DNA of 64,000 bases from positions 2,210 to 66,209 of the forward strand of contig JBDRCT010000034.1 in NCBI GenBank assembly GCA_043821445.1. The letters run 5' to 3'. Within the stretch, counting starts at the first letter, position 1, and the number at the start of each line of letters is the position of its first letter. The notes under the pieces were generated by a model, which was not told where the DNA came from, searched no databases, and worked only from the letters and a program-made list of their open reading frames with translations. The position numbers were made by a program, and so were the translations under genes. This stretch comes from Candidatus Omnitrophota bacterium (GTDB lineage: Bacteria > Omnitrophota > Omnitrophia > Omnitrophales > Aquincolibacteriaceae). This document shows, piece after piece, positions 743-50,095 of this stretch.

Positions 743-2632
743 TCATTTCTTTTGGAGGTGAAGTTCTTTCAAGACCGACGCGGTGATCTTTTCGGGAGAA
801 AGGCCGAATTCGTCAAGCTGGGTGTCGCGGGAACCGTGTTCGATGAATTCATCCGGCAGGGCGAAGCGTTTGACCGGAACGTTGCGGAGGTTCTTTTCTT
901 CCAGGAACTCCAAGACCTTGGAACCGAACCCGCCCGCAGCAACATGTTCTTCCAGGGTGAAAAGGAATTTCGTTTTTTTGAGGGAGTCCAGGATCAATTG
1001 CTCGTCGAGGGGACGGGCAAAACGCATGTTCACGATCCGGGCGGAAACGCCTTCTTTCTTGAGAAGTGCATGCGCCTTGCAGGCGGTCTCCACCATGTTC
1101 CCAAGGGCAAGGATCGTCATGTCCTCGCCGTCAAAGAGCAACTCCCCTTCTCCTACCTCAAAGACTTTTTTCGGAAAAGCGTCGAACATCTTGGGGATGT
1201 TCGCCCGCGGATAACGGATCGCAAAGACCGACGCGTGGTTCAGGGCAAGCTCCATCATTTTTTCCATTTCATATTCATCGATGGGAGAAGCCAGCACGAT
1301 GCCCGGAACGGACCCGAGGTAGGCGAGATCAAAGATCCCCTGATGGGTGGCGCCGTCCGCGCCGACAAGGCCAGCGCGATCGACCCCGATCACGATGCTC
1401 TGGCGTTGCAACGCGACATCGTGCATCACGGAATCATGGGCACGTTGCAAAAAAGACGAATAGATGGCCACGACGGGTTTGAGCCCGCCCCGCGCAAGGG
1501 CTCCCGCAAAAGTGACGGCGTGCTGTTCCGCGATCCCGACGTCAAAAAAGCGCTCGGGAAATTCCTTCTGGAATTGGACGAGCCCGGTCCCCGAAGGCAT
1601 AGCCGCCGTGATCGCGACCACCTTGGGATTCCGGCGCGCGTGTTTGGAAAGAGCATCGGCAAAAGCCTGGGTGTAGGAGACGCCTGTGGCGTCGCTCTTT
1701 GATGACACGATCTCGATCTTTTCTCCGGTCTCCACGTCAAAAGGGCCGACGCCATGCCCTTTTTCCTCGTCTCTTTCCGCGAACGCACAACCCTTTCCTT
1801 TTTTTGTAAGAATATGAAGAAAACTGCAAGTGTTGAGGGCCAGCACATCGCGCAGGGTTTTGACCAAACCCACGACGTCATGCCCGTCCACAGGGCCGAA
1901 ATACCGGAACCCCAACTCCTCAAAAAGGATCCCGGGCACAAAAAGATGTTTCATGCCTTCGAGCGAAGCGTTGGAGAATCTCTTGAGACGCGGAAAACGG
2001 CTGAGTTGTTTTTCGACTTCCCCGCGAATGCGGTTGTAGAGGGGATTGGTGATGACCCGGTTGAGGTAACGGCTCATTCCTCCGACGTTCTTCGCAATCG
2101 ACATCTCGTTATCGTTCAGAATGATGAGCATGTTCTTCTTGAGATGCCCGGCGCTGTTCAGGGCCTCAAAGGAAAGTCCCGAGGTCATGGCTCCGTCTCC
2201 GACCACGGCCACGACTTTTTCATTTCCTCTTTTGATGTCACGCGCAGCGGCGAGTCCCAAAGCCTGCGAGATCGCGGTACCGGCATGGCCGACGATGAAA
2301 GGGTCATGCGCGTTTTCCCACGGGGCGGGAAAACCGCTCAGGCCTCCGGGCTGGCGCAGGGTGTTCATCCGGTCCTTGCGCCCTGTGATCATTTTATGAA
2401 CATAGGCCTGGTGGCCGACATCCCAGCAGATCTTGTCCTCGGGAGAATGAAGGACATAGTGGAGAGCGATCGAGAGCTCCAAAACACCCAGGCTCGCGCC
2501 CAGATGCCCGCCGGTCTTGGCCACGGATCCGATCAGAAATTGGCGGTACTCCTCAGCAACCTCCGGAAGTTTTTCCAGAGGCACCTGCTTCAGGTCCTGC
2601 GGGCTCTTTATTTGGTCGATCCAGTTTGTCAT
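743..2632 (-). CDS. dxs: 1-deoxy-D-xylulose-5-phosphate synthase
   Basis: 629 aa; thiamine-diphosphate/transketolase-like motifs (GDGAMTSG, typical Dxs N-terminus VGHQAYVHK); conserved position downstream of ispA. Confidence 0.95.
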   Translation of the reverse strand: MTNWIDQIKSPQDLKQVPLEKLPEVAEEYRQFLIGSVAKTGGHLGASLGVLELSIALHYVLHSPEDKICWDVGHQAYVHKMITGRKDRMNTLRQPGGLSGFPAPWENAHDPFIVGHAGTAISQALGLAAARDIKRGNEKVVAVVGDGAMTSGLSFEALNSAGHLKKNMLIILNDNEMSIAKNVGGMSRYLNRVITNPLYNRIRGEVEKQLSRFPRLKRFSNASLEGMKHLFVPGILFEELGFRYFGPVDGHDVVGLVKTLRDVLALNTCSFLHILTKKGKGCAFAERDEEKGHGVGPFDVETGEKIEIVSSKSDATGVSYTQAFADALSKHARRNPKVVAITAAMPSGTGLVQFQKEFPERFFDVGIAEQHAVTFAGALARGGLKPVVAIYSSFLQRAHDSVMHDVALQRQSIVIGVDRAGLVGADGATHQGIFDLAYLGSVPGIVLASPIDEYEMEKMMELALNHASVFAIRYPRANIPKMFDAFPKKVFEVGEGELLFDGEDMTILALGNMVETACKAHALLKKEGVSARIVNMRFARPLDEQLILDSLKKTKFLFTLEEHVAAGGFGSKVLEFLEEKNLRNVPVKRFALPDEFIEHGSRDTQLDEFGLSPEKITASVLKELHLQKK

Positions 2633-2644
2633 GGTTTTCCTATT

Positions 2645-3463
2645 TCACGGAATACGTGATCTTAAAAAATCCGCCAAAAAGATAAGTTCTTTGGCTTCAG
2701 CGCCCAATCGTTTTGCTTCTTTTTTCGCCCGGCCGATAAGACCGAGCGCTTTCTGGGTGGCCGCCTTGATGCTCATCACCTTGCAATAACCGTCTTTATC
2801 CAGGATATCATCTACGATCTGGAACGCAAGCCCCAAGCATGCTCCGTAACGGGTCATTATTTTGAGCTTGCGCGGGGCAGCGCCCGCGGCGATCGCTCCG
2901 GCCATGGCACTGACACGGATCAACGCGCCCGTCTTAGAGCGGCTGATGAAATCGTGCTCCGCGAGCGTCTTTTTCCGTGCCGGAGCTTCCAGGTCCGCGA
3001 CCTGCCCTCCGATCATCCCTTGCGTCCCGGCGGCCTTCGATATTTCGCGCAGAACGTGGACGGCCCGGTGCGCGGGTTTGATCTCCGCGATCCATTCGAA
3101 CGCCAGGGTGAGGAGCGCATCGCCGGCCAGGACCGCGTTCGCTTCGCCGAATTTTTTGTGGCAGGTGGGTTTTCCGCGCCGGGTATCGTCATTGTCCAGC
3201 GCCGGAAGATCGTCATGCACGAGTGAATAAGTATGGATGAGCTCGATCGCCAGGGCCGTCCCCATAGCGTCCCGGGGCTTTCCTCCGCACGCCTCACAAG
3301 CCGAGAGTACCAGCACCGGCCGGAACCTTTTCCCGCCCGTAAAGACCGCGTACTGCATGGCCTTGTGAATGCTGAGCGGACGGGCTTCCCGGGCGCGCAG
3401 CAGGCCTCTCAGCTTATGCTCGATCATCCCCAGATAGCATTTGTAGTATTGTTCGTAGGTCAT
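2645..3463 (-). CDS. ispA: Polyprenyl (farnesyl/geranyl) diphosphate synthase
   Basis: First aspartate-rich motif LVHDDLPALDNDDTRRGKPT and second motif region GDALLT. Start chosen at MTYEQYY (ATG 3463), which leaves 10 nt after the xseB stop. The longer ORF start at 3535 would overlap xseB by 62 nt. Confidence 0.9.
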   Translation of the reverse strand: MTYEQYYKCYLGMIEHKLRGLLRAREARPLSIHKAMQYAVFTGGKRFRPVLVLSACEACGGKPRDAMGTALAIELIHTYSLVHDDLPALDNDDTRRGKPTCHKKFGEANAVLAGDALLTLAFEWIAEIKPAHRAVHVLREISKAAGTQGMIGGQVADLEAPARKKTLAEHDFISRSKTGALIRVSAMAGAIAAGAAPRKLKIMTRYGACLGLAFQIVDDILDKDGYCKVMSIKAATQKALGLIGRAKKEAKRLGAEAKELIFLADFLRSRIP

Positions 3464-3473
3464 ATACGCTTTG

Positions 3474-3749
3474 TTAGGCCCCTTCACCAGAAACTTTTTT
3501 CTTTTTCGATCTCGGGGCCGGTTCGTCAGGGTCAAACGTCTCTTTTTTGAGCGACCCGTCCAGGGACCGGGTCAGAACCTCGATCTTCTTTTCCGTTTCG
3601 GTGAGCTTGGACTGGCAAGAGCGCACCAACCCGACACCCTCTTCGTATTTCTTGAGCGCCTGGTCAAGCGTCAGTTCCCCGCTCTCCATCGCTTCCACGA
3701 TCTTTTCAAGGTCTTCCAACGCTTTCTCAAATTGAAACTTTTCGGTCAT
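3474..3749 (-). CDS. xseB: Exodeoxyribonuclease VII small subunit
   Basis: 91 aa; XseB-like N-terminus (FEKALEDLEKIVEAMESGELTLDQALKKYEEGVGL); start overlaps the xseA stop. Confidence 0.85.
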   Translation of the reverse strand: MTEKFQFEKALEDLEKIVEAMESGELTLDQALKKYEEGVGLVRSCQSKLTETEKKIEVLTRSLDGSLKKETFDPDEPAPRSKKKKVSGEGA

Positions 3750-4996
3750 GGAATATCCCCCTTTTGGGTTATAGCAGAAACCTTCGAGACTAAAGAACCT
3801 TTATGAAGCCGGGTCCGTATCACATCCCCTTCCGAAATCTGCCGGACATTTTTGAGGATGTCGCCTTTTTCATTAAAACTCACGGAATAACCGCGCTCAA
3901 GGATCGCGAGAGGATTGAGTGCATTCAACCGGCCCATGATACCCTGAAAGACCTGGCTCTTGGAACCCATAAAGTTTGACACGCAACCTTCTATCCGCCG
4001 GCCCAGATCATCCACCCGTCCGGTAAATTGGTCCAGGAGATACCGCGGCTGCCGGAACGCCGCGCTTGAAGCAAGACCCGAAAGCCGCTCCTGATACCGC
4101 TCACAGATCCCGGTCACTATGAGATCCATTCTCTCCTTACGTTCGTGCAAACGGTCTTCAAGTTCGAAACGGCTTGAGACGATGAGCTCCGCGGCGGCTG
4201 AAGGCGTCGGGGCCCGAAGATCCGCTACAAGATCGCAGATCGTCCAATCGCTCTCATGTCCCACCGCAGAAATAACGGGGATCCTCGACCCAAAGATCGC
4301 ACGGGCGACAGGCTCCTCGTTAAAGGCCCAAAGATCTTCGAGACTTCCGCCGCCCCGTCCCACGATCAGGACATCGGCCTCTGCTTGCTCGTTCATCATT
4401 CCGACAGCAGCCGCGATCTCCGCGGCCGCGCCTTCTCCCTGCACTTTGACAGGGCAGAGCAGAACATGGGTCCCGCAGAACCGGCGGTTCACCACGTTCA
4501 AAATATCATGGATCGCGGCCCCGGTCGGCGAGGTGATCACGCCCACGATCTTCGGAAACTTCGGGACGGGCCGCTTCCGCTCTTCGGCGAACAGACCCTC
4601 CTTAGCCAATTTCTCTTTTAATTGCTGGAACGCAAGCTGGAGCGCCCCGATGCCCTGCGGTTCTACGCGTTCGATATAAAGCTGGTACTGCCCGCGCGCT
4701 TCGTAAATGGAAACACGGCAGAACGCGAGGACCTTGAGTCCGTCCTTGAGCTCGAACCGGAGTCCGCGCTGATATTGGCTGAAGAAAGCCGCCTGGATCT
4801 GTGCCGATTCGTCTTTGAGCGTCAGATAGATATGCCCGGAGCTGTGATGCTTGAAGTTCGAGATCTCCCCTTCCACCCAGACCGCGGAAATCCGGGATTC
4901 CAGGAGCAGGCGGCTCTGCCGGTTCAGCTGGCTGACCGTATAAATTTTTCTTTCCTTGCTATTCAAATCGAGATCGTGCATTTCTGCGGCTTTCAT
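3746..4996 (-). CDS. xseA: Exodeoxyribonuclease VII large subunit
   Basis: 416 aa; OB-fold N-terminus plus catalytic core (VWVEGEISNF, GRGGGSLEDLWAFNEE); GGAG ribosome-binding site 8 nt upstream of the ATG. Confidence 0.9.
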   Translation of the reverse strand: MKAAEMHDLDLNSKERKIYTVSQLNRQSRLLLESRISAVWVEGEISNFKHHSSGHIYLTLKDESAQIQAAFFSQYQRGLRFELKDGLKVLAFCRVSIYEARGQYQLYIERVEPQGIGALQLAFQQLKEKLAKEGLFAEERKRPVPKFPKIVGVITSPTGAAIHDILNVVNRRFCGTHVLLCPVKVQGEGAAAEIAAAVGMMNEQAEADVLIVGRGGGSLEDLWAFNEEPVARAIFGSRIPVISAVGHESDWTICDLVADLRAPTPSAAAELIVSSRFELEDRLHERKERMDLIVTGICERYQERLSGLASSAAFRQPRYLLDQFTGRVDDLGRRIEGCVSNFMGSKSQVFQGIMGRLNALNPLAILERGYSVSFNEKGDILKNVRQISEGDVIRTRLHKGSLVSKVSAITQKGDIP

Positions 4997-5010
4997 ACAT
5001 CACTCCAAAT

Positions 5011-5075
5011 GGCGCAACGCGCAAAGCGCAACGTGAAAGTATTCGCGTTGAGCGTTGCCCGTTGTGCGTTGAGCG
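5011..5075. repeat. REP-like imperfect palindromic element, family 1 copy A (GCGCAACG units)
   Basis: GGCGCAACGCGCAAAGCGCAACG ... CGTTGAGCGTTGCCCGTTGTGCGTTGAGCG. A second copy lies at 54748-54814. It sits between the MTHFS stop and the xseA start, 14 nt from the xseA ATG. Confidence 0.6.
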
Positions 5076-5079
5076 GATT

Positions 5080-5622
5080 TTAGTCGGTAATGACTCGATC
5101 CATCCTCACATCATGTATCTGCATCGGAACTTTTTTTACGATCTGTTCCCGGAAGCACAACCCGACTTTAACTGCTTTTTGGGCCTTCCGGAGAAGCCGG
5201 TCATAGTAAGCGCCACCCCGCCCCAGACGTCCGCCGCTTTTGTCAAAAGCCACGCCCGGGACAATAATGATATCCATTTGACGGGCCGGCCACTTCTTAC
5301 AAAATGCCCTGGGTTCCCTGATGTTGTAAGCGCCCTTTTTGAGGTCCCTGGAAAGTGAACGGACCCGGCACAATACCATGGATCTTTTCGGATCGATCCT
5401 CGGAAGATAGATCTTTTTATTTTTCAAAACCTTTTCAAGGAAGGGCCTTGTCTCAACCTCGGGTGCGATCCCATAATAAAGCGCGACATGCTCAGCTCTT
5501 TGAAAAATGGGCTCCCGGGATAATGTCCTGAGAATGCGACGGCTTTTCACATGCCGCGAGAGACGCGGAATATTTCTCCTTTTCTCAAGGAGTGCTTTTC
5601 TAAGAGAACTCTTTTCCAGCAT
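5080..5622 (-). CDS. 5-formyltetrahydrofolate cyclo-ligase
   Basis: 180 aa; MTHFS family motifs (DIIIVPGVAFD, GRGGAYYDR). Confidence 0.8.
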   Translation of the reverse strand: MLEKSSLRKALLEKRRNIPRLSRHVKSRRILRTLSREPIFQRAEHVALYYGIAPEVETRPFLEKVLKNKKIYLPRIDPKRSMVLCRVRSLSRDLKKGAYNIREPRAFCKKWPARQMDIIIVPGVAFDKSGGRLGRGGAYYDRLLRKAQKAVKVGLCFREQIVKKVPMQIHDVRMDRVITD

Positions 5623-5634
5623 GGATCAAGGGAC

Positions 5635-6093
5635 CTAGCGGGCTGCCGTCTTTTTTTCTTGTTCGAAGCGGGCTCGTTCCGCCTCGAGCTTTGCAGCTTT
5701 TTCATCAAGATCGGCTTGAAGCTGGCGAAGATTTTCTTTTTGGCGATCCATTTCCTCGGAGAACTTCTGGCGCTCGGCCTGGAAAGTCTTTTTTTGAGCC
5801 TCAAGTTCCCGGCTTTCGTCCTGAGCGGTGTCCGGACTGTTGAGGGTCTGCATCTTGGAGAAAATCTCTTCTTTGAGCTTTTCCAGCTGATCCTGTTTCT
5901 CACGGATCATCTGGACCTGCTGATCGCGAACTGCTTCCCATTCCGTCTTCAGCTTATCAAGCTCGGATTGCGGGACCGGCTCCCCGGCTTTCTCCGAAAC
6001 CTCCGCTGCGGCCTGGCCGGTTGCAAATCCCGCCGGAGACAAAAAAAGAACGGCCAAGATCCAAAAAAAAGCGGTCCTTTTAAATTTTCGCAT
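5635..6093 (-). CDS. Secreted coiled-coil protein (possibly OmpH/Skp-like), unknown function
   Basis: Start chosen at MRKFKRTAFFWILAVLFLSPAGFA (signal peptide). The rest is E/K/Q-rich with heptad-like periodicity. The longer ORF start at 6150 has no signal peptide. Confidence 0.45.
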   Translation of the reverse strand: MRKFKRTAFFWILAVLFLSPAGFATGQAAAEVSEKAGEPVPQSELDKLKTEWEAVRDQQVQMIREKQDQLEKLKEEIFSKMQTLNSPDTAQDESRELEAQKKTFQAERQKFSEEMDRQKENLRQLQADLDEKAAKLEAERARFEQEKKTAAR

Positions 6094-6105
6094 TTTCCCT
6101 TCTGC
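6079..6105. repeat. 27-bp direct repeat, left copy, flanking the low-GC island
   Basis: tttaaattttcgcattttcccttctgc. A near-identical copy (26/27, one extra t) lies at 7930-7956. The left copy contains the 5' end (RBS and ATG) of the coiled-coil gene. Confidence 0.7.
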
Positions 6106-6174
6106 TCTTTCTCTTTGATTTGTCATAGCCGGGTTCGCGACGAATGGCACCGGTACCGTTCAAATTCCTGACAT

Positions 6175-7782
6175 TTAAACCTTTTCCTTTTTTAAAAACT
6201 TGCGGATCCGGATAAGCTTCAATCCTCGCAATTCAGAATCAAGCTCGGCCTCCTGCCAACCCTCAAGACTTTCCATGTCTGACAAAATCTTTGCGGTGTT
6301 TTCATACTGCCGCCATTCGGGAACTCTTTGAAGAAAAATAATATATACTTTATTTGGTATAACTTGGTCAATAATTTGTTTCAGATCTGACATTCCTTTA
6401 AAATCGACGTATAACTCGAACACGGGCGCGTTTCCATTCGCCATGCAAATTATTTGAGGAATAAACCCCCAGTCAGCTGCTATGAAAATCGCGCTTTCGA
6501 CGTGTTGGGCAAAAAACTCCGCCATCTGGGTATATTCGGGACTCCACTCAGGCGAGGTCTTTCCAGTCAAAAGAGATCGTTCTGTCGAGCTGAAGACAAT
6601 TATGCGATATAAAAAAAATACTGAGAGAACTATCAGAAAAAGCCAGCGCAGGATTTTTGTCAAAACCGTCCGCCTACCCCCTTTGTCGTAGAGCCCTGTA
6701 AAAGTTAAAGCCATTGCAACATATTGAAAGGGCGTGCCAAGGATCCAGTGGTAAACCCAGGTTGTTTGAGGCAAAACTCGGATCGCAACAGCGATAGCCA
6801 AATAGGCCAGCAAGGAAATACCGGCCCACTTGAACCACCGGCTGCTGTTCCGCGCAAAAACCCATAGACTCGCTATTAAACTCGAAATGAGTAGAATGCA
6901 TATACCTTCTACGCAATACAAGCGCCACCCCGTCTGGACACCACATATAATAGCTTTTACCAAGGCACCATTCCCAAGACAGAGGTACTTCCAAAAATAG
7001 GAGGCATGATCGCTCCAGGATAAACGAATGGAAGAATGCGCCACTGCGCTTAAGGAGAATAGCTTGTGTTCATGAACCCACGAATAAAGATTGACCGGGA
7101 TCAGAGGGAAACAACCTAAAAAATATCCTGCAGCACAAGCAAATAGGTGCGGAATTTTTCGGCGAGGCCCAGAAAAAAACATGAACATTAACAGCGGAAC
7201 CAGCAACACAACCGAACTCAATTTTTCATAAAGCGCAACACCCGCTATAACGCCAAGCCAAAATGAATTTGCGACATGGGGGACTCCCTTTATTTCTCCG
7301 CGAAGCCACACTCCGATGAACAAAAGACGGAGGGCTAGGATCAACGCAACCGATCCCCAATCATGTCGTGTCATTAGAAGAACACTAGGATCCAGAATGA
7401 CAAAAACAAAAAAAATAACAAGTCCCAAGGGAGGCCATTCCTTTCGAAGAAGCCAGCCGAAGAGGAATATCGCCACGCTCACAAAAAACACTCCGAGCAG
7501 CCTCCAACTCACCACCGAAAAACACGCCTTGAATATCCGCAAATAAAGACCATAAATGGTACTTTTGATCGCGCCTATGTAGGAATTATTAAATAGTGGA
7601 AAGTGTTGACGACCTATGGAAATACAAAAACCACCAAATGCATCTTTTGGGCTTTTAGCTAAAGAGGCGGGGGCCTGAAAAACTTCATCGCAATAAAGTC
7701 CTTGGCGCGAAAGCGCGATGCTTCCAGCACTAAGAAATAAGCTGCACGCAATCAGGGATATTATTACGTTGATTTTGGACAC
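6175..7782 (-). CDS. Polytopic membrane protein, probable GT-C-type (ArnT/PMT-like) glycosyltransferase
   Basis: 535 aa; about 12 hydrophobic helices in the N-terminal 400 aa, then a soluble C-terminal domain; GTG start; local GC about 40% against about 56% elsewhere. Confidence 0.45.
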   Translation of the reverse strand: MSKINVIISLIACSLFLSAGSIALSRQGLYCDEVFQAPASLAKSPKDAFGGFCISIGRQHFPLFNNSYIGAIKSTIYGLYLRIFKACFSVVSWRLLGVFFVSVAIFLFGWLLRKEWPPLGLVIFFVFVILDPSVLLMTRHDWGSVALILALRLLFIGVWLRGEIKGVPHVANSFWLGVIAGVALYEKLSSVVLLVPLLMFMFFSGPRRKIPHLFACAAGYFLGCFPLIPVNLYSWVHEHKLFSLSAVAHSSIRLSWSDHASYFWKYLCLGNGALVKAIICGVQTGWRLYCVEGICILLISSLIASLWVFARNSSRWFKWAGISLLAYLAIAVAIRVLPQTTWVYHWILGTPFQYVAMALTFTGLYDKGGRRTVLTKILRWLFLIVLSVFFLYRIIVFSSTERSLLTGKTSPEWSPEYTQMAEFFAQHVESAIFIAADWGFIPQIICMANGNAPVFELYVDFKGMSDLKQIIDQVIPNKVYIIFLQRVPEWRQYENTAKILSDMESLEGWQEAELDSELRGLKLIRIRKFLKKEKV

Positions 7783-7929
7783 AAAAAAGAACCTAAGGGG
7801 GTTCGACTATATTCATGCGATCGCATTTTGCATCCCTTTACCATTTTCTGGAACACCTCCAACAACAAAAAAACAACATGCTGAACGGTAAAGATATTGT
7901 TTCCTCAAGAATTCGAAAGAAGCAGTTTA

Positions 7930-7956
7930 TTAAATTTTTCGCATTTTCCCTTCTGC
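7930..7956. repeat. 27-bp direct repeat, right copy (decayed duplicate of the coiled-coil gene 5' end)
   Basis: ttattaaatttttcgcattttcccttctgc. On the minus strand it reads ATGCGAAAAATTTAATAA (M-R-K-I-stop). Confidence 0.7.
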
Positions 7957-8125
7957 CTTCCTGCGCCTCTTGCTATAATGCCAGCCCGTAGCAGGTCTTA
8001 TGCCTCCATAGCTTCCGCCTCGCCAGGGGCGAGGATGGATCCGTCCTCCGGATTAACCGGAGGCGGACAATTGGAATAACCTAGTTTCTCTTTTTTATCA
8101 TGTTATGATTTCGCTGATGTTTCGT

Positions 8126-8199
8126 GCCCCCATAGCTCAATTGGATAGAGCATCTCCTTCCTAAGGAGAGGGTTGCATGTTCGATTCATGCTGGGGGCA
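8126..8199 (+). tRNA. tRNA-Arg (anticodon CCT)
   Basis: Cloverleaf folded by hand: acceptor GCCCCCA/TGGGGGC, D-stem GCTC/GAGC, anticodon stem TCTCC/GGAGA with loop TTCCTAA (U33, CCT, A37), T-stem GCATG/CATGC with TTCGATT loop, discriminator A. Followed by TTTTTT. Confidence 0.85.
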
Positions 8200-8203
8200 T
8201 TTT

Positions 8204-8725
8204 TTAATATTTTATGAGTGAAAACACATCGCGGTTTTTCAGTTTTTGCCGCCCTTTCAGAAACTCTAATTCGATCACGAACGCGAGTTTCGTCACTTTG
8301 CCGCCGATGGCTTCCACAAGTTTTACAGCCGCGGCAGCCGTCCCCCCCGTCGCCAAGAGGTCGTCCACGATGACCACCTTCTCCCCGCGTTTCACCGCGT
8401 CCTGATGGATCTCAAGGATCTCTTCACCGTATTCAAGTGTGCAAGCAATACTCTGGGTCTTCCAGGGAAGTTTGCCCTTTTTGCGAATGGGCACAAAACC
8501 CACCCCGAGTTTTGTCGCAAGCGCTGTCCCAAAGATAAATCCACGCGACTCGATCCCCACCACCGCGCCGATCTTTTTCCCTTTTAGAGACCTTGCCAAC
8601 CGGGCAATGATCTCCCGGAGCGACTTCGCGTCCTTCAGGAGCGGTGTGATGTCCCGGAAAAGGATCCCTTTTTTGGGAAAATCAGGAATGTTGCGGACTT
8701 TGGCTTTCAACGTTTTCAGATTCAT
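8204..8725 (-). CDS. apt: Adenine phosphoribosyltransferase
   Basis: 173 aa; PRTase motif [13 protein letters not shown] and typical Apt N-terminus. Confidence 0.9.
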
Positions 8726-29536: not shown

Positions 29537-31327
29537 TTAAGCTTTAGGACGCTCGATCCACATTCGTTTTGCGTCAAGATTCAGTTCTTTGAGCTGCCGT
29601 TCAGTCGCGGGCGACGGCGCATCGGTCATAAGACAAGTGCCCTTTTGCGTCTTCGGGAACGCAATCACCTCGCGAATGGATTCCCGGCCCAGAAGCAGCG
29701 TGATCAGCCGATCCACGCCGATCGCCAAACCCCCGTGCGGCGGCGCGCCGAACGCAAGCGCCTTGAGAAGGAACCCGAACTGGGCTTCGGCCTGTTCCGG
29801 AGTAAAATTGAGAAGTTGAAAGATCTTGGACTGCACGGCCCGGTCATGGATACGGATACTGCCCCCGCCCGTTTCCGTGCCGTTGATGACCAGGTCATAA
29901 GCCCGCGCGCGCACCTTCAAAGGGTCTTTATCGAGCATCGGAACATCCTCAGGCTTGGGTGACGTGAACGGGTGATGGCAGGCATCATAGCGTTTCTCTT
30001 CCTTATTCCAATCAAAAAGCGGGAAATCCACGACCCAAAGAAGTTCGAATTTCCCCTCCGGGACCTTGCCGTATTTTTCGGCAAGGAAACATCGAAGCGC
30101 ACCGAGCGCCACAACCGCGACCTTAAACTGGTCAGCGATCACGAAAATAATGTCGCCCGGCTTCGCGCCCAAGGTTTGAACCACTTTCCCGATCCGCGTC
30201 GTATCAAAGAATTTCTGGATCGGCGATTCGACCGTATCCGGTCCCGTCACCTTGAGCCAGGCAAGTCCCTTCACACCAAAATCCTGCTGGAGCCATTTTG
30301 TCAGATCATCGAAATCCTTGCGGGAGAATTCCACGCCCGCGGGTGGTGTGAATGAAAGCCCGCGGATCTCGCCTTCACTTGCGATCGTCTCATCGAAAAC
30401 GCGGAATCCGCTCTTTTCGAAGACCGGCGTGAGATTCCGGATCTCCATCCCGTAGCGAAGGTCCGGTTTGTCGCATCCATATTTATCCATCGCGTCTTTA
30501 TAGCTCAAACGCCGAAGCGGTAACGGAATGTCGATCTTCTTTGCATGCTTGAACACATACGCGATCATCCCTTCCACAGCACCCATGATATCTTCCTCGC
30601 TGATGAACGACATCTCAAGATCGATCTGGGTATGCTCGGGTTGACGGTCCTTGCGAAGATCCTCATCGCGAAAACAGCGGGCGATCTGATAATAACGGTC
30701 ATAACCAGCGATCATCAGGATCTGTTTGAAAAGCTGCGGCGATTGCGGAAGCGCATAAAAAGTCCCGTGATTCAGACGGGACGGCACCAGAAAGTCACGC
30801 GCGCCTTCCGGCGTGCTTTTCGTCAAATAAGGCGTCTCGACTTCGATAAAACCTTGTTTATCCAAATATTCGTGCACGAGCTTGAGTACGCGATGACGAA
30901 AGGTCAGGTTTTCCACCATTTCGCGCCTCCGGAGATCGAGAAACCTGTACTGAAGACGGAGCTCCTCACCCACGCTTTTTTCTTCGAGTTCGAACGGCAG
31001 CGGCAGGCATGGGTTCAGGATCTCAAGTTCTTCCGCCTGGAGTTCGATCTCCCCGGTCGGGATCCTGGAATTGATGGTGCCGGCCGGACGAGCGGCTACC
31101 TTTCCCTTCACCCGGATCACGAATTCCGAGCGAAGCGACTCCGCTTTCTTATGCATCTCAGGGTTAGCCTGAGGATTAAGAACGATCTGCGTTATGCCCC
31201 AGCGATCGCGCAGGTCCACAAAGATCAAGTTTCCATGATCGCGGCGTGTATCCACCCATCCGGTCAAGGTCTCCTGTTTTCCGATAAAACTTTTGTTCAA
31301 CTCCCCGCACGTCACTGTCCTCAGCAT
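29537..31327 (-). CDS. aspS: Aspartate--tRNA ligase
   Basis: 596 aa; anticodon-binding OB fold ([19 protein letters not shown]) and class II motifs ([18 protein letters not shown]; GGGSIRIHD). Confidence 0.95.
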
Positions 31328-32574
31328 GAGCTCATCACCTTTTTTAAATGTGCCACGACCTGTTCGATATCCACTTCCTGCTGCTCCCTCTTTTCAAGGT
31401 CTTTCACGATTATTTTTTCCTTTTGGAGTTCCTCCGGACCGACGATCACCATGAAGCGCAGCCCCAGTTGATTCGCCTTCTTCAAATGCTGGCTCAGGGA
31501 AAAAATGCCGTGTGCAGTCTCAGGCCGAATCCCTGCTTCGCGTAACTGAAGTGCTTTTTCCCGGAAAATTCGGAGGATATCTGAATTGTCCTCAAGTGGT
31601 GCGATATAAACCTTCCGTTGTTTGAGCTCATCAAACACCTCCGGGTTTTGACTCACAAGTGTCATTAAAAGACGCTCCGTTCCAATACTAAACCCTATGC
31701 AAGGCGTCGTACTTCCGCCAAGATCGGCATACAGATTGTCATAAGAACCTCCGCCAGCTACTGCATCCTGCGCACCCAATCCTTCTGCAGTTACTTCAAA
31801 AACAGGCCCGGTGTAATAATCCAAACCACGAACAAGGCGGCGATTGATTTGATAAGGAATATCATGCTTTTTCAACCCTTCCAAAATATCCGTGCTTAAG
31901 GCATTCCAGGGAGCGTTTTCAATAACGGGTTGGCAGTTCTTGGCTTTGCAATCAAAAATCCTAAGTACGTTTTTCTCCAACCGCCACTGGCAATCTTGAC
32001 ATAGTTTATTTTTTTCTTGAGAAAAATAAGCTCTCAGCTTTTGAATCGTTTGGCTTTGCCGAACATCTCTAAGGTCATTTACGTTCAACTTAAAATTCTC
32101 AACCCCAACATAACGCAAAAAATCGCAGAGAAGCCCGATGCATTCAATATCCGCATTAACTCCAGGTTCATTAATTATTTCAATTCCGATTTGATGGAAT
32201 TGACGTTTACGACCCGCTTGAGGCCGTTCAGCGCGGAACATAGGACCCATGTAATAAAGTCTAAGGGATTTGGCTGTTTTGAGGAGGCCCTTTTCAATCA
32301 CGGAACGCGCGACTGAGGCGGTCATTTCGGGACGCATCGTCATGTCGCGTTCACCGCGATCCTTGAAGGAGTACATCTCTTTATGGACAATATCACTAGC
32401 TTGGCCGATTGAGCGGACAAAAAGTTCGGTGGGTTCGAGAAGAGGCGTACGTATTTCTTTGAATCCGGCAGCATCAAAAAAAATTCGAGCTTTTTCCTCG
32501 ATCCACTGCCATTTTTCGATCTCACCGGGAAGAATGTCGTCCATCCCGGGGAAACCCTGGTATTTTGCCGTCAT
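31321..32574 (-). CDS. hisS: Histidine--tRNA ligase
   Basis: 417 aa; class II motifs (KEMYSFKDRG, MGPMFRAERPQAGRKRQFHQIG, GGGSYDNL). Confidence 0.95.
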   Translation of the reverse strand: MTAKYQGFPGMDDILPGEIEKWQWIEEKARIFFDAAGFKEIRTPLLEPTELFVRSIGQASDIVHKEMYSFKDRGERDMTMRPEMTASVARSVIEKGLLKTAKSLRLYYMGPMFRAERPQAGRKRQFHQIGIEIINEPGVNADIECIGLLCDFLRYVGVENFKLNVNDLRDVRQSQTIQKLRAYFSQEKNKLCQDCQWRLEKNVLRIFDCKAKNCQPVIENAPWNALSTDILEGLKKHDIPYQINRRLVRGLDYYTGPVFEVTAEGLGAQDAVAGGGSYDNLYADLGGSTTPCIGFSIGTERLLMTLVSQNPEVFDELKQRKVYIAPLEDNSDILRIFREKALQLREAGIRPETAHGIFSLSQHLKKANQLGLRFMVIVGPEELQKEKIIVKDLEKREQQEVDIEQVVAHLKKVMSSC

Positions 32575-48679: not shown

Positions 48680-50095
48680 TTAGAGGTTCGAGAGCTGGAG
48701 ACTGGAAACAGAAATTCTGCTCTGGCGAATACAATCCGTGATGCCAAATCCGTGGAATCCATTTCCCGTAAAAAAAAGACCGGGATATTGAAAACCTTTT
48801 TTTTCGATCCGCTTCACACGATCAAAATGTCCCGTCTCATATTGGGGCAACGCGCTAGGATAGCGTTCAATATCGATAAGCAGCGGCTTGGCATGAACGC
48901 CAAAAAAATCACTCATAAAAGTCTGCATCCTTTGTTTGACTAGTGCGTCATTCTCATGAAAGACCTTGGGAAGCATTGTTTCGGACAGAAATGCGCGCAT
49001 CAAAAGGTGTTTTCCATCCGAGCTCTTACCGAGCCATTTAAAACTTGAAAAAGGACACCGCTCACCCCCCATGGGCACCAGGAATCCGAAATCCGGACCT
49101 TGAGCCAGTACATCCCCGGCCTTGTAAATAAGATTCACCGCCGCGATCGAATCGTATCGTACAGTTGAAAGTGCCAGGGAAAGTTCGGGAGCGGTTGTAA
49201 AAAGCAATTTCGAAGCATCGCAAGCGTTCATGGCAAAACCCAAGATGTCTGCGCACAATAGGGTGCCATCCTCCATAAAAATTTCCCAACCCGCGTTGTA
49301 AGCACACTGCCGGACAGGCGAGGACCTTCGCAACTCACACCTCCCTAATTCCCGCACAAGCGCGTGAACTAGTCCTTCAAGGCCCTGCCTCAAAGTAAGA
49401 AATTCTGCCGGAACCTTTTCTTTTCTCCAGCTTGTCTTGTTCAGAAAAGATCCGGCAAGACTTCCATGAGTCTTCTCGACTTGCCGCAGCCTTGGGAATA
49501 GAGCTTCCAGACTCAACCGCTCGGGATTCATCATGCAAACGCCTTGCGCCAATGGTTTTACGACTTCTTGGTAGAAGCCTTGCCCAAGACGCCGGCGAAT
49601 AAAACTCGCGAGACTTTCATCTCCATCTTCCTTCCGACGCGGAATGAACGGCTCTCCAAGCATCCGGCATTTCCCAAAAAAACTCAACCGAGGGCTATTA
49701 AGAAAACGAAAGACATCGGAAAAGGATCCAGAAAGACCTGGAATAGGATAAAGCTGTTTATTTTTCAGGCCAAAAAAACGCCGGAAGCATGGGGATGCCT
49801 CGATCACATCTTCCTGAAGACCCAGCTTGCGACAAAGGTCCAGGGTGTCATTTTGACCGGCATAGAAAGCATCCGCTCCGGCTTCCATGTGAAGGCTTTC
49901 GTGTGTCAGCGTACGAAGCACCCCACCCAAACGGTTTGAGGCTTCGAGTACGGTGATCCTAAGGGGAAAATGCTCTTCTGCGGCTCTCCGGGAAAGGAAA
50001 AAAGCGGAGCTAAGGCCTGAAATACCACCCCCGATGATCACCGCGTGGCGTCCAAGTCTTGGATTTCTTTTTTGAACGTTGACTTGAACTGTCAT
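48680..50095 (-). CDS. FAD-dependent oxidoreductase, protoporphyrinogen-oxidase / phytoene-desaturase (HemY/CrtI)-like
   Basis: 471 aa; dinucleotide motif VIIGGGISGLSSAF...VLEASNRLGGV; C-terminus FTGNGFHGFGITDCI typical of the amine-oxidase superfamily. Confidence 0.7.
   Translation of the reverse strand: MTVQVNVQKRNPRLGRHAVIIGGGISGLSSAFFLSRRAAEEHFPLRITVLEASNRLGGVLRTLTHESLHMEAGADAFYAGQNDTLDLCRKLGLQEDVIEASPCFRRFFGLKNKQLYPIPGLSGSFSDVFRFLNSPRLSFFGKCRMLGEPFIPRRKEDGDESLASFIRRRLGQGFYQEVVKPLAQGVCMMNPERLSLEALFPRLRQVEKTHGSLAGSFLNKTSWRKEKVPAEFLTLRQGLEGLVHALVRELGRCELRRSSPVRQCAYNAGWEIFMEDGTLLCADILGFAMNACDASKLLFTTAPELSLALSTVRYDSIAAVNLIYKAGDVLAQGPDFGFLVPMGGERCPFSSFKWLGKSSDGKHLLMRAFLSETMLPKVFHENDALVKQRMQTFMSDFFGVHAKPLLIDIERYPSALPQYETGHFDRVKRIEKKGFQYPGLFFTGNGFHGFGITDCIRQSRISVSSLQLSNL

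What the first reader, a model, noticed from the sequence alone, without database searches (positions are those of the whole stretch)
6079..7956. Low-GC single-gene island (GT-C-like membrane protein) flanked by 27-bp direct repeats, adjacent to tRNA-Arg
The 1.6-kb gene at 6175-7782 is about 40% GC against about 56% for the rest of the window. It is bracketed by near-identical 27-bp direct repeats (6079-6105 and 7930-7956). The left repeat is the functional 5' end of the coiled-coil gene. The right repeat is a frameshifted remnant of the same sequence (M-R-K-I-stop). This is the footprint expected from insertion of foreign DNA with local duplication, next to a tRNA gene at 8126, and tRNA genes are common integration sites. 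The product resembles lipid-linked sugar transferases and could alter surface glycans.
Basis: partly seen in the sequence, partly recalled or inferred. Interest (0 to 1): 0.55.

Follow-up and report, generated by a model that had tools for sequence, protein, structure and literature searches.

The report
Old single-gene glycosyltransferase insertion
A single foreign membrane sugar-transferase gene was inserted long ago into the start of a neighbouring gene in an uncultured Omnitrophota bacterium, copying about 48 bases of that gene's start on both sides; this is a clear but ordinary case of horizontal gene gain.

Summary
The 535-aa ORF (6175-7782, minus strand) has 44.6% GC against 51.5% for the window, not 40 against 56. 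Its GC3 (0.45) is the lowest of 42 long ORFs, though hisS is equally low. The flanking direct repeat is real and longer than reported: about 48 nt, at 6065-6112 and 7916-7962 (0 of 1000 shuffles reach its score). It covers the ribosome-binding site, the ATG and the first ~10 codons of the coiled-coil gene.

Two related contigs (L087, L089) have the predicted empty site, apt - tRNA-Arg(CCT) - coiled-coil gene. There the tRNA's extended -10 box directly abuts the coiled-coil start. The closest relative (L001/L084, 72% aa identity) has the same gene at the same place, also low in GC and with the same repeat, more decayed. The insertion therefore predates that split (dS about 0.7), and the gene is under purifying selection (dN/dS 0.21).

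An AlphaFold model (pLDDT 92.5) matches only GT-C glycosyltransferases (ALG9/12, STT3, ArnT, AftA), and D32-E33 after TM1 is invariant. No integrase, transposase, inverted ends or tRNA-derived repeats are present, so a tRNA-targeted island is not supported.

Verdict: an old single-gene horizontal insertion of modest interest.

The parts
5635..6093 (-). Coiled-coil gene (152 aa; N-terminal signal-peptide-like segment MRKFKRTAFFWILAVLFLSPAGFA, then coiled coil). This is the host gene whose 5' end was duplicated.
   Evidence: ORF list. Only weak coiled-coil-type family hits. Orthologues in L001, L004 and L085-L089.
6065..6112 (-). Downstream (functional) copy of the ~48-nt direct repeat: SD GAAGGG, ATG at 6093-6091 and the first ~10 codons of the coiled-coil gene.
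6113..6174 (-). 62-nt spacer between the stop of the GT-C gene and the downstream repeat copy. It is part of the inserted segment and contains a short GGTACC-centred palindrome.
   Evidence: (I11).
6175..7782 (-). Inserted gene: 535-aa polytopic membrane protein with a GT-C glycosyltransferase fold and an invariant D32-E33 after TM1. It belongs to an uncharacterised family of about 422 50%-identity clusters.
   Evidence: dN/dS 0.21 against L001. Lowest GC3 in the window.
7783..7915 (-). 133-nt untranslated 5' part of the inserted segment, conserved with L001. It contains the 12-nt perfect palindrome ATGCGATCGCAT (7814-7825) and a hairpin followed by a T-run (7804-7789) just before the GTG start.
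7916..7962 (-). Upstream (vestigial) copy of the repeat: SD plus ATG (7944-7942), then a frameshifted remnant MRKI* (stop at 7932-7930). It occupies the position of the coiled-coil start of the empty sites. On the + strand it overlaps the -35/upstream region of the tRNA promoter.
   Evidence: In L001 the same copy still reads MRNFLRTAFFNS*.
7971..7979 (+). Putative extended -10 box TGCTATAAT of the tRNA-Arg promoter.
   Evidence: Read from the sequence. Conserved as TGnTATAAT in L001, L087 and L089, which keep this tRNA orientation. Decayed in the downstream copies and in L085/L086. The consensus scan did not list it because the -35 is poor. Its function is inferred.
7984..8124 (+). Leader between the promoter box and the tRNA, with two adjacent GC-rich hairpins (8018-8034 and 8045-8063). 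Highly conserved with L001.
   Evidence: No Rfam match. Unique in the window.
8125..8200 (+). tRNA-Arg (anticodon CCT).
   Evidence: ARAGORN; Rfam tRNA 68.8 bits.
8204..8725 (-). apt (adenine phosphoribosyltransferase-type PRTase), the conserved flank on the other side of the tRNA.

Best explanation
In the common ancestor of this Omnitrophota lineage and its closest sampled relative (L001/L084), a roughly 1.8-kb piece of foreign DNA landed inside the very start of the coiled-coil gene. It carried one gene for a GT-C-fold, lipid-linked-sugar-type membrane glycosyltransferase.

In empty-site relatives that start lies back to back with the divergent tRNA-Arg(CCT) promoter. The event left a ~48-bp direct duplication of the coiled-coil gene's ribosome-binding site, start codon and first ~10 codons.
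- The downstream copy (6065-6112) still serves as the real start of the coiled-coil gene.
- The upstream copy (7916-7962) is a decaying coding remnant: MRKI* here, MRNFLRTAFFNS* in the relative.
- I infer that the upstream copy persists because, on the other strand, it forms the -35/upstream region of the tRNA-Arg promoter.
- I also infer that the resident promoter upstream of it now reads into the new gene.

The glycosyltransferase has since been kept by purifying selection. It presumably transfers a sugar from a polyprenyl-phosphate donor to an acceptor on the outer face of the inner membrane; this is inferred from fold only.

Shown: the repeat, the empty sites, the shared insertion, the fold and the selection. 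Inferred: the promoter roles, the donor and acceptor chemistry, and the insertion mechanism. The most likely mechanism is integrase-independent, for example single-crossover (Campbell-type) integration of a circular fragment through ~50 bp of homology, or repair of staggered breaks.
For: - The repeat is real and non-random.
- Empty sites apt - tRNA-Arg - coiled-coil gene exist in L087 and L089, with only 48-127 nt between the tRNA and the coiled-coil start.
- In the alignment of all coiled-coil 5' regions, the W and L001 upstream copies continue leftwards into the same GGCATTATA(A/G)CAAG box as the empty sites. The downstream copies continue rightwards into the coiled-coil coding sequence.
- L001/L002/L003/L084 carry the gene in the same place with the same repeat, more diverged at 33/44.
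- The L001 upstream copy matches the window's downstream copy at 41/48 and still encodes MRNFLRTAFF.
- W+L001 are sisters (bootstrap 0.73). The gene-less relatives form a single clade in only 10% of bootstraps.
- A search of 5.8 billion proteins finds no homologue between 42% and 72% identity.
- GC3 is 0.45 in W and 0.52 in L001, against about 0.54-0.68 for neighbours.
- dN/dS is 0.21.
- The GT-C fold is supported by a model with pLDDT 92.5. All significant PDB hits are ALG12, ALG9, STT3, ArnT or AftA.
- D32, E33, K73, R139, D141, E186 and K187 are invariant.
- 11 of 43 family members hit PMT_2.
- No inverted ends were found. The flanks leave no room for a mobility gene.
Against: - The tree is only moderately resolved, so ancestral presence followed by repeat-mediated deletion in the other lineages is not excluded.
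- Low GC3 is not unique to this gene: hisS has the same value.
- Family members in other phyla also tend to have lower GC3 than their neighbours. That could be a family trait rather than a sign of transfer.
- No donor, vector or mobility function was found.
- The promoter and UP-element roles are read from consensus and conservation only.
- The tRNA-Arg region has been rearranged repeatedly in this group (L004, L085 and L088 have the tRNA inverted), so the history may be more complex than one event.
Confidence: 0.72

Rival explanations
1. The GT-C gene and its flanking repeats are ancestral to the whole genus-level group. The 'empty' sites in L087 and L089 arose by deletion through recombination between the two repeat copies, which would restore a single copy exactly.
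For: - Direct repeats of ~48 bp can mediate precise deletion.
- The tree support is moderate: 0.73 for W+L001, with the deeper order unresolved.
- The box TATGAC upstream of the window's downstream copy is shared with L085 and L086. This could mean that those lineages descend from a two-copy ancestor.
Against: - It needs at least two independent losses on the best tree.
- No GT orthologue or remnant was found in any other member.
- The gene's composition is atypical in both carriers.
- Even in this scenario an earlier insertion is needed to create the repeat.
Confidence: 0.15
2. This is the remnant of a tRNA-targeted, integrase-borne genomic island or prophage, like serotype-converting gtr cassettes at tRNA genes. 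It has decayed to a single cargo gene.
For: - The tRNA-Arg(CCT) neighbourhood is a genuine hotspot in relatives.
- L085 has a tyrosine integrase plus a Prim-Pol/AAA_25 element abutting the tRNA.
- L004 has a Gp49/HTH pair, DUF1016 and ORF6N genes after the tRNA, with a second copy of the tRNA 3' end.
- From memory: argW, the E. coli tRNA-Arg(CCU) gene, is a known phage attachment site.
Against: - The insert lies on the 5' side of the tRNA, beyond its promoter.
- The repeats are copies of the coiled-coil gene start, not of the tRNA.
- There is no extra tRNA fragment in the window.
- There is no integrase or remnant within the 133-nt and 62-nt flanks.
- No GtrA/GtrB-like partners are present.
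- No homologue was found in phage, plasmid or IMG/VR collections.
Confidence: 0.06
3. The repeat is not an insertion scar. It is a shared functional element, a common translation-initiation or leader region that co-regulates the two genes. The GT-C gene is native, and its low GC reflects its membrane-protein amino-acid and codon usage.
For: - The SD and ATG of the upstream copy are conserved in W and L001.
- Family members in other phyla often have lower GC3 than their neighbours.
- hisS shows that native genes can have equally low GC3.
Against: - The mini-ORF is not conserved: 4 codons in the window against 12 in L001.
- It ends about 130 nt before the GT start, so there is no translational coupling.
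- Empty-site relatives have exactly one copy, at the position of the upstream copy.
- The gene is absent from all other members of the group.
Confidence: 0.07

Closest known systems
GT-C superfamily glycosyltransferases: ArnT / PMT_2 (PF13231) and ALG9/ALG12 (Glyco_transf_22, PF03901) types
   Same: - Polytopic membrane protein of about 12 helices with a C-terminal soluble alpha/beta domain.
- Foldseek probability 1.0 and TM 0.47-0.56 to ALG12, ALG9, ArnT, STT3 and AftA.
- An invariant acidic pair, D32-E33, immediately after TM1, where GT-C enzymes carry their catalytic Asp/Glu. The comparison with the PMT 'DE' motif is from memory.
- Weak PMT_2 and Glyco_transf_22 hits in some relatives.
   Different: - The window protein hits no Pfam or NCBIfam model.
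- A family profile finds no PDB sequence, even at E<=10.
- Sequence identity to solved GT-C enzymes is 11-13%.
- Donor, acceptor and even catalytic activity are untested.
- Family members are mostly solitary genes outside glycan clusters. Two of the six other contexts sampled (L094, L095) do include glycan-type genes.
tRNA-associated genomic islands and serotype-converting gtr cassettes (knowledge from memory)
   Same: Foreign, compositionally atypical DNA next to a tRNA gene, bracketed by direct repeats and carrying a membrane glycosyltransferase. Relatives have real integrase-type elements at the same tRNA.
   Different: - No integrase.
- The repeats are not derived from the tRNA.
- The insert is at the 5' side of the tRNA.
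- It carries a single gene without GtrA/GtrB partners.
- It has no phage or plasmid homologues.
Campbell-type (single-crossover) integration or duplicative insertion, which produces flanking direct repeats of the homology segment
   Same: The inserted DNA is flanked by direct copies of a ~48-bp host segment. That is longer than transposase target-site duplications and includes functional host sequence. Both neighbouring functions, the tRNA promoter and the coiled-coil gene start, stay intact.
   Different: The mechanism is inferred only from the end product. No circular intermediate or donor carrying the homology segment was found.

Membership tests
GT-C glycosyltransferase superfamily | Polytopic integral membrane protein (at least 8 TM helices) with the conserved N-terminal GT-C helix module | tested here: met
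   The AF2 model has pLDDT 92.5 and pTM 0.92, with about 12 long helices and a C-terminal alpha/beta domain.
GT-C glycosyltransferase superfamily | Structural similarity to solved GT-C enzymes | tested here: met
GT-C glycosyltransferase superfamily | Conserved acidic catalytic residue(s) in the first extracytoplasmic loop after TM1 | tested here: met
   D32 and E33 are invariant in 43 family members. They lie in short helices directly after TM1 (residues 2-21) in the model. Membrane orientation was not tested.
GT-C glycosyltransferase superfamily | Uses a polyprenyl-phosphate-linked sugar donor | not testable with these tools
   Needs biochemistry.
Pfam PMT_2 (PF13231) | Score above the Pfam gathering threshold | tested here: not met
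   The window protein has no hit at E<=0.1. 11 of 43 relatives hit, with a best E-value of 4e-8. This points to a remote relative, not a member.
tRNA-targeted integrase-borne genomic island | Tyrosine or serine integrase gene at one end | tested here: not met
   There is only one ORF between the repeats, and the flanks of 133 nt and 62 nt leave no room.
tRNA-targeted integrase-borne genomic island | Flanking direct repeats are copies of the tRNA 3' part, and the island lies at the tRNA 3' side | tested here: not met
   The repeats are the coiled-coil gene's SD, ATG and first codons. There is no second tRNA fragment in the window. The insert is on the 5' side of the tRNA.
tRNA-targeted integrase-borne genomic island | Present or absent polymorphism among relatives, and atypical composition | tested here: met
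   Empty sites in L087 and L089. Lowest GC3 of 42 ORFs.
IS element / transposon | Transposase, terminal inverted repeats and a short (2-14 bp) target-site duplication | tested here: not met
   No transposase is present. There are no inverted repeats at the insert ends. The duplication is about 48 bp.
gtrABC-type serotype-conversion cassette | GtrA flippase and GtrB bactoprenol glycosyltransferase genes adjacent to the GT-C-type gene | tested here: not met
   The neighbours are the coiled-coil gene, the 5-FTHF cyclo-ligase gene, xseA, the tRNA and apt.

The most novel reading that the evidence does not exclude
This uncharacterised GT-C family has about 422 50%-identity clusters and no Pfam model. 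It is usually a solitary gene, often lower in GC3 than its neighbours, and twice found beside tRNA genes. It might spread between phyla as a self-sufficient single-gene cassette. Such a cassette would insert without any dedicated recombinase by capturing and duplicating the promoter, RBS and start of a resident gene. That would be a recurrent, integrase-free 'promoter-capturing' mode of gene gain, and the enzyme might perform a new envelope glycosylation in Omnitrophota.
Probability: 0.08. Interest if true: 0.55.

Novelty: new member of a known kind. Interest (0 to 1): 0.3.

Why it matters
This is a clean, datable example of how a single accessory gene can be wedged between two overlapping, divergent functions without breaking either. 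Here those functions are a tRNA promoter and the start of a protein gene. The overlap segment was duplicated, and the spare coding copy then decayed while its promoter role was presumably kept.

It also flags a sizeable GT-C-fold family that current domain databases do not name and that tends to sit alone in genomes. For Omnitrophota, an uncultured and mostly ultra-small group, an acquired periplasm-facing glycosyltransferase may change the cell surface.

None of this overturns current understanding.

Tried and rejected
- Pfam and NCBIfam on the window protein gave nothing.
- A PDB sequence search with the family profile gave nothing.
- An exact look-up of the window protein's own contig found no record.
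- Rfam on the conserved leader and on the whole window found only the tRNA.
- I considered a sigma-54 box in TGGCATTATAGCAAG by eye and rejected it because the GG-GC spacing is wrong.
- I considered whether the leader is a degenerate tRNA, since 8001-8013 resembles the tRNA 5' end (D17). ARAGORN and Rfam do not call it, and I could not draw a cloverleaf.
- I looked for homology between the two repeat copies beyond 48 nt, into the TATA(G/A)C box and the signal-peptide codons. It is suggestive by eye but not recovered by local alignment, so I do not claim it.
- I looked for flanking repeats around three homologues in other phyla and found none.
- I looked for phage, plasmid and IMG/VR carriers and found none.
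- I looked for paralogues in the window and found none.
- I tried to reconstruct how the tRNA came to be inverted in L004, L085 and L088. A single inversion does not explain the different left flanks, so this is left unresolved.
Full report
**Origin of the window.** The 535-aa product of ORF 6175-7782 (-) is identical to NCBI protein ABH891_06215 of a Candidatus Omnitrophota MAG. The gene order around it is ispA - xseB - xseA - 5-formyl-THF cyclo-ligase - coiled-coil gene - [ORF] - tRNA-Arg(CCT) - apt - sigma-70 - ppdK.

**Checking the observation.**
- The tRNA is at 8125-8200 (+).
- The two 27-nt stretches exist as described: 25/27 identical ungapped, 26/27 with one indel, with a 17-nt exact core.
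- On the minus strand the left copy is GAAGGGAAA-ATG-CGA-AAA-TTT-AAA-AGG, the Shine-Dalgarno sequence and start of the 152-aa signal-peptide/coiled-coil protein.
- The right copy has one extra A and reads MRKI-stop (7944-7930).
- A gapped local alignment extends the repeat to about 48 nt, 6065-6112 against 7916-7962. The score is 53 against a dinucleotide-shuffle maximum of 33 (0 of 1000 shuffles).
- The composition figures were overstated. The gene is 44.6% GC and the window 51.5%.
- The gene is still the lowest-GC 1.6-kb stretch of the window. Its GC3 of 0.453 is the lowest of 42 ORFs of at least 200 aa (mean 0.598, sd 0.052).
- The histidyl-tRNA synthetase gene at 31321-32574 has GC3 0.455, so composition alone proves little.

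**Relatives that carry the gene.**
- Only one other protein cluster is closely related: P0002, at 72% identity. The next best hit is at 41-42%.
- P0002 lies on contigs L001/L002/L003/L084 in exactly the same place: ppdK - sigma - apt - tRNA-Arg(CCT) - GT - coiled-coil - cyclo-ligase - xseA.
- There the gene is again lower in GC than its neighbours: 48.3% against 52.5% overall, and GC3 0.52 against about 0.53-0.66.
- The repeat is present at the same two positions but more decayed, 33/44.
- Its upstream copy still reads MRNFLRTAFFNS-stop. It matches the window's functional copy at 41/48. It is therefore plainly a copy of the coiled-coil N-terminus MRKFKRTAFF.

**Relatives with an empty site.** A metagenome scan with the coiled-coil protein and a genome scan with XseA found further members of the same genus-level group, at 82-88% identity over cyclo-ligase + XseA (+ XseB where present).
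Only 127 and 48 nt separate the tRNA from the coiled-coil gene.
- In these empty sites a box GCATTATAACAAG lies about 25 nt upstream of the coiled-coil start codon. Its reverse complement is cTTGTTATAATgc, an extended -10 pointing at the tRNA.
- In the window and in L001 the same box (TGCTATAAT, 7971-7979 on the + strand) is followed by the upstream repeat copy.
- The upstream copy is therefore the original position of the coiled-coil start. About 1.8 kb now separates it from the gene, which uses the second copy.
- L004, L085 and L088 also lack the GT gene, but their tRNA is in the opposite orientation and their left flanks differ.

**Direction and age of the event.**
- In an NJ tree of cyclo-ligase + XseA + XseB, W and L001 are sisters (bootstrap 0.73) within a 100%-supported ingroup.
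- The gene-less members form a single clade in only 10% of bootstraps.
- One gain is therefore more parsimonious than several losses, but the resolution is moderate.
- No orthologue turned up for the other members in 5.8 billion proteins. The caveat is that MAGs are incomplete.
- Between W and L001, dS is 0.73 for the GT gene and 0.31-0.64 for its neighbours. dN/dS is 0.21 for the GT gene.
- The insertion is therefore old and the gene is functional.
- The higher repeat identity in W than in L001 needs no gene conversion. L001's downstream copy has lineage-specific changes, and both upstream copies resemble W's downstream copy best.

**What the gene encodes.**
- The family has about 422 clusters at E<=1e-3 and is conserved over its full length.
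- The window protein hits no Pfam or NCBIfam model. However, 11 of 43 aligned relatives hit PMT_2 (best E-value 4e-8) and 3 hit Glyco_transf_22.
- An AlphaFold2 model built from the 43-sequence alignment has pLDDT 92.5 and pTM 0.92. It shows about 12 membrane helices and a C-terminal alpha/beta domain.
- All Foldseek PDB hits with E<=1e-3 are GT-C glycosyltransferases: ALG12, ALG9, STT3, ArnT and AftA, with TM 0.47-0.56. ALG3, EmbB and Pmt1/2 follow.
- The invariant residues include D32-E33 directly after TM1, plus K73, R139, D141, E186 and K187. That position is where GT-C enzymes carry their catalytic acidic residues; this last point is established knowledge, not tested here.
- The 'GT-C-like' call is thus supported at the fold level. 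Chemistry and acceptor are unknown.

**How it got there.**
- Nothing points to a dedicated mobility function. There is one ORF between the repeats and there are no inverted ends.
- There is no tRNA fragment besides the tRNA itself.
- No homologues exist in phage, plasmid or IMG/VR collections.
- The insert sits on the 5' side of the tRNA, beyond its promoter. Integrase-borne islands use the 3' part of tRNA genes.
- The 48-bp duplication is too long for a transposase target duplication.
- I favour an integrase-independent route: either single-crossover integration of a circular fragment through a short homology, or duplicative repair. This is inference from the end product.
- The duplication makes functional sense. 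In the empty sites the tRNA promoter's -35/upstream region and the coiled-coil RBS and start occupy the same bases on opposite strands. Only an insertion that duplicates this segment leaves both intact.
- That may also explain why the upstream copy keeps its sequence while its reading frame decays. This too is inferred.

**Controls on the 'foreign DNA' signal.** Six other family members on long contigs are mostly solitary genes with no conserved neighbours.
- In four of them (L091, L092, L094, L095) the gene has lower GC3 than most of its neighbours. L094 and L095 are compositionally mixed, and each has one or more neighbours as low or nearly so.
- In the other two (L090, L093) it does not.
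- One (L091) lies just after tRNA-Pro and tRNA-Arg(TCT).
- None of the three examined has flanking repeats.
- The family therefore seems prone to transfer, or it has intrinsically AT-shifted codon usage. The data do not separate these two possibilities.

**Neighbourhood.** The tRNA-Arg(CCT) region is a rearrangement hotspot in this group.
- L085 has a tyrosine integrase and a Prim-Pol/AAA_25 primase-helicase ending 8 nt before the tRNA.
- L004 has a Gp49/HTH pair, DUF1016 and ORF6N genes after the tRNA, plus a second copy of the tRNA 3' end 76 nt downstream.
- These are true tRNA-associated elements, but they are unrelated to the GT insertion.

**Verdict.** The event is old and shared by two lineages. 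The tRNA is a neighbour rather than the target, and the composition contrast is smaller than claimed. This is a new member of known kinds, namely a horizontally acquired islet and a remote GT-C family. Interest is modest.

Noticed in passing
window 7984-8124 (+), with L001 9698-9840 and L004 2497-2520: The ~140-nt stretch between the putative tRNA-Arg promoter box and the tRNA is more conserved between W and L001 than the flanking genes. It holds two adjacent GC-rich hairpins: CCTCGCC-AGG-GGCGAGG, and GTCCTCCGG-ATTAA-CCGGAGG(C)GGAC. The differences between W and L001 fall in the loops. The fold z-score is only about -2.4 on either strand. There is no Rfam match and the element is unique in the window. 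L004 keeps only the 3' part (CCGGAGGCGGACAAcTGGAA), while L087 has different hairpins and L089 almost none. It could be a tRNA leader or processing element, or a small inserted element.
   Followed up: partly
L085 2281-5947: A tyrosine integrase (4741-5865) and a Prim-Pol/PriCT/AAA_25 primase-helicase (2281-4029) end 8 nt before the 5' end of tRNA-Arg(CCT) (5874-5947). That tRNA lies 53 nt upstream of the coiled-coil gene, in the opposite orientation to the window. This is an integrative element at an unusual side of the tRNA.
   Followed up: partly
L004 2569-6450: After tRNA-Arg(CCT) comes a second copy of the tRNA 3' end (GATTCATGCTGGGGGCATTT, 2720-2739). It is followed by a Gp49-like/HTH_3 toxin-antitoxin-type pair, a DUF1016 protein, an ORF6N-domain protein and about 500 nt of non-coding DNA before the coiled-coil gene. 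This is an att-like scar with an accessory island at the same locus.
   Followed up: partly
window 8125-8200 versus L004, L085, L088: The tRNA-Arg(CCT) gene is adjacent to the coiled-coil gene in all relatives, but in two opposite orientations and with different genes on its far side (apt, DUF1189 or an integrase). A single inversion does not explain this.
   Followed up: no
window 31321-32574 (-): The histidyl-tRNA synthetase gene has GC 45.9% and GC3 0.455, as low as the inserted gene. An amine-oxidase-type ORF at 48680-50095 has GC3 0.477. These may be further horizontally acquired genes.
   Followed up: no
window 7789-7825 (-): A perfect 12-nt palindrome, ATGCGATCGCAT (7814-7825), and a terminator-like hairpin with a T-run (GAACCCCCTTAGGTTC TTTTTT, 7804-7789) lie immediately upstream of the GTG start of the GT-C gene. 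In W an in-frame TAG removes the upstream ATG start that is annotated in L001, so W starts 11 codons later.
   Followed up: no
L004 6498-7277: The coiled-coil protein is expanded to 259 aa in L004 by three tandem copies of a segment of about 57 aa (…ELEAQKAAFQAERQKFN.EM..QKE.LRQSQVALDGKTKSL.ASTASKDRA…).
   Followed up: no
L091 5261-7620; L090-L095: Distant homologues of the GT-C gene are mostly solitary genes among unrelated housekeeping genes. They have lower GC3 than most neighbours in 4 of 6 contigs. In L091 the gene follows tRNA-Pro(TGG) and tRNA-Arg(TCT) after a gap of about 580 nt.
   Followed up: partly
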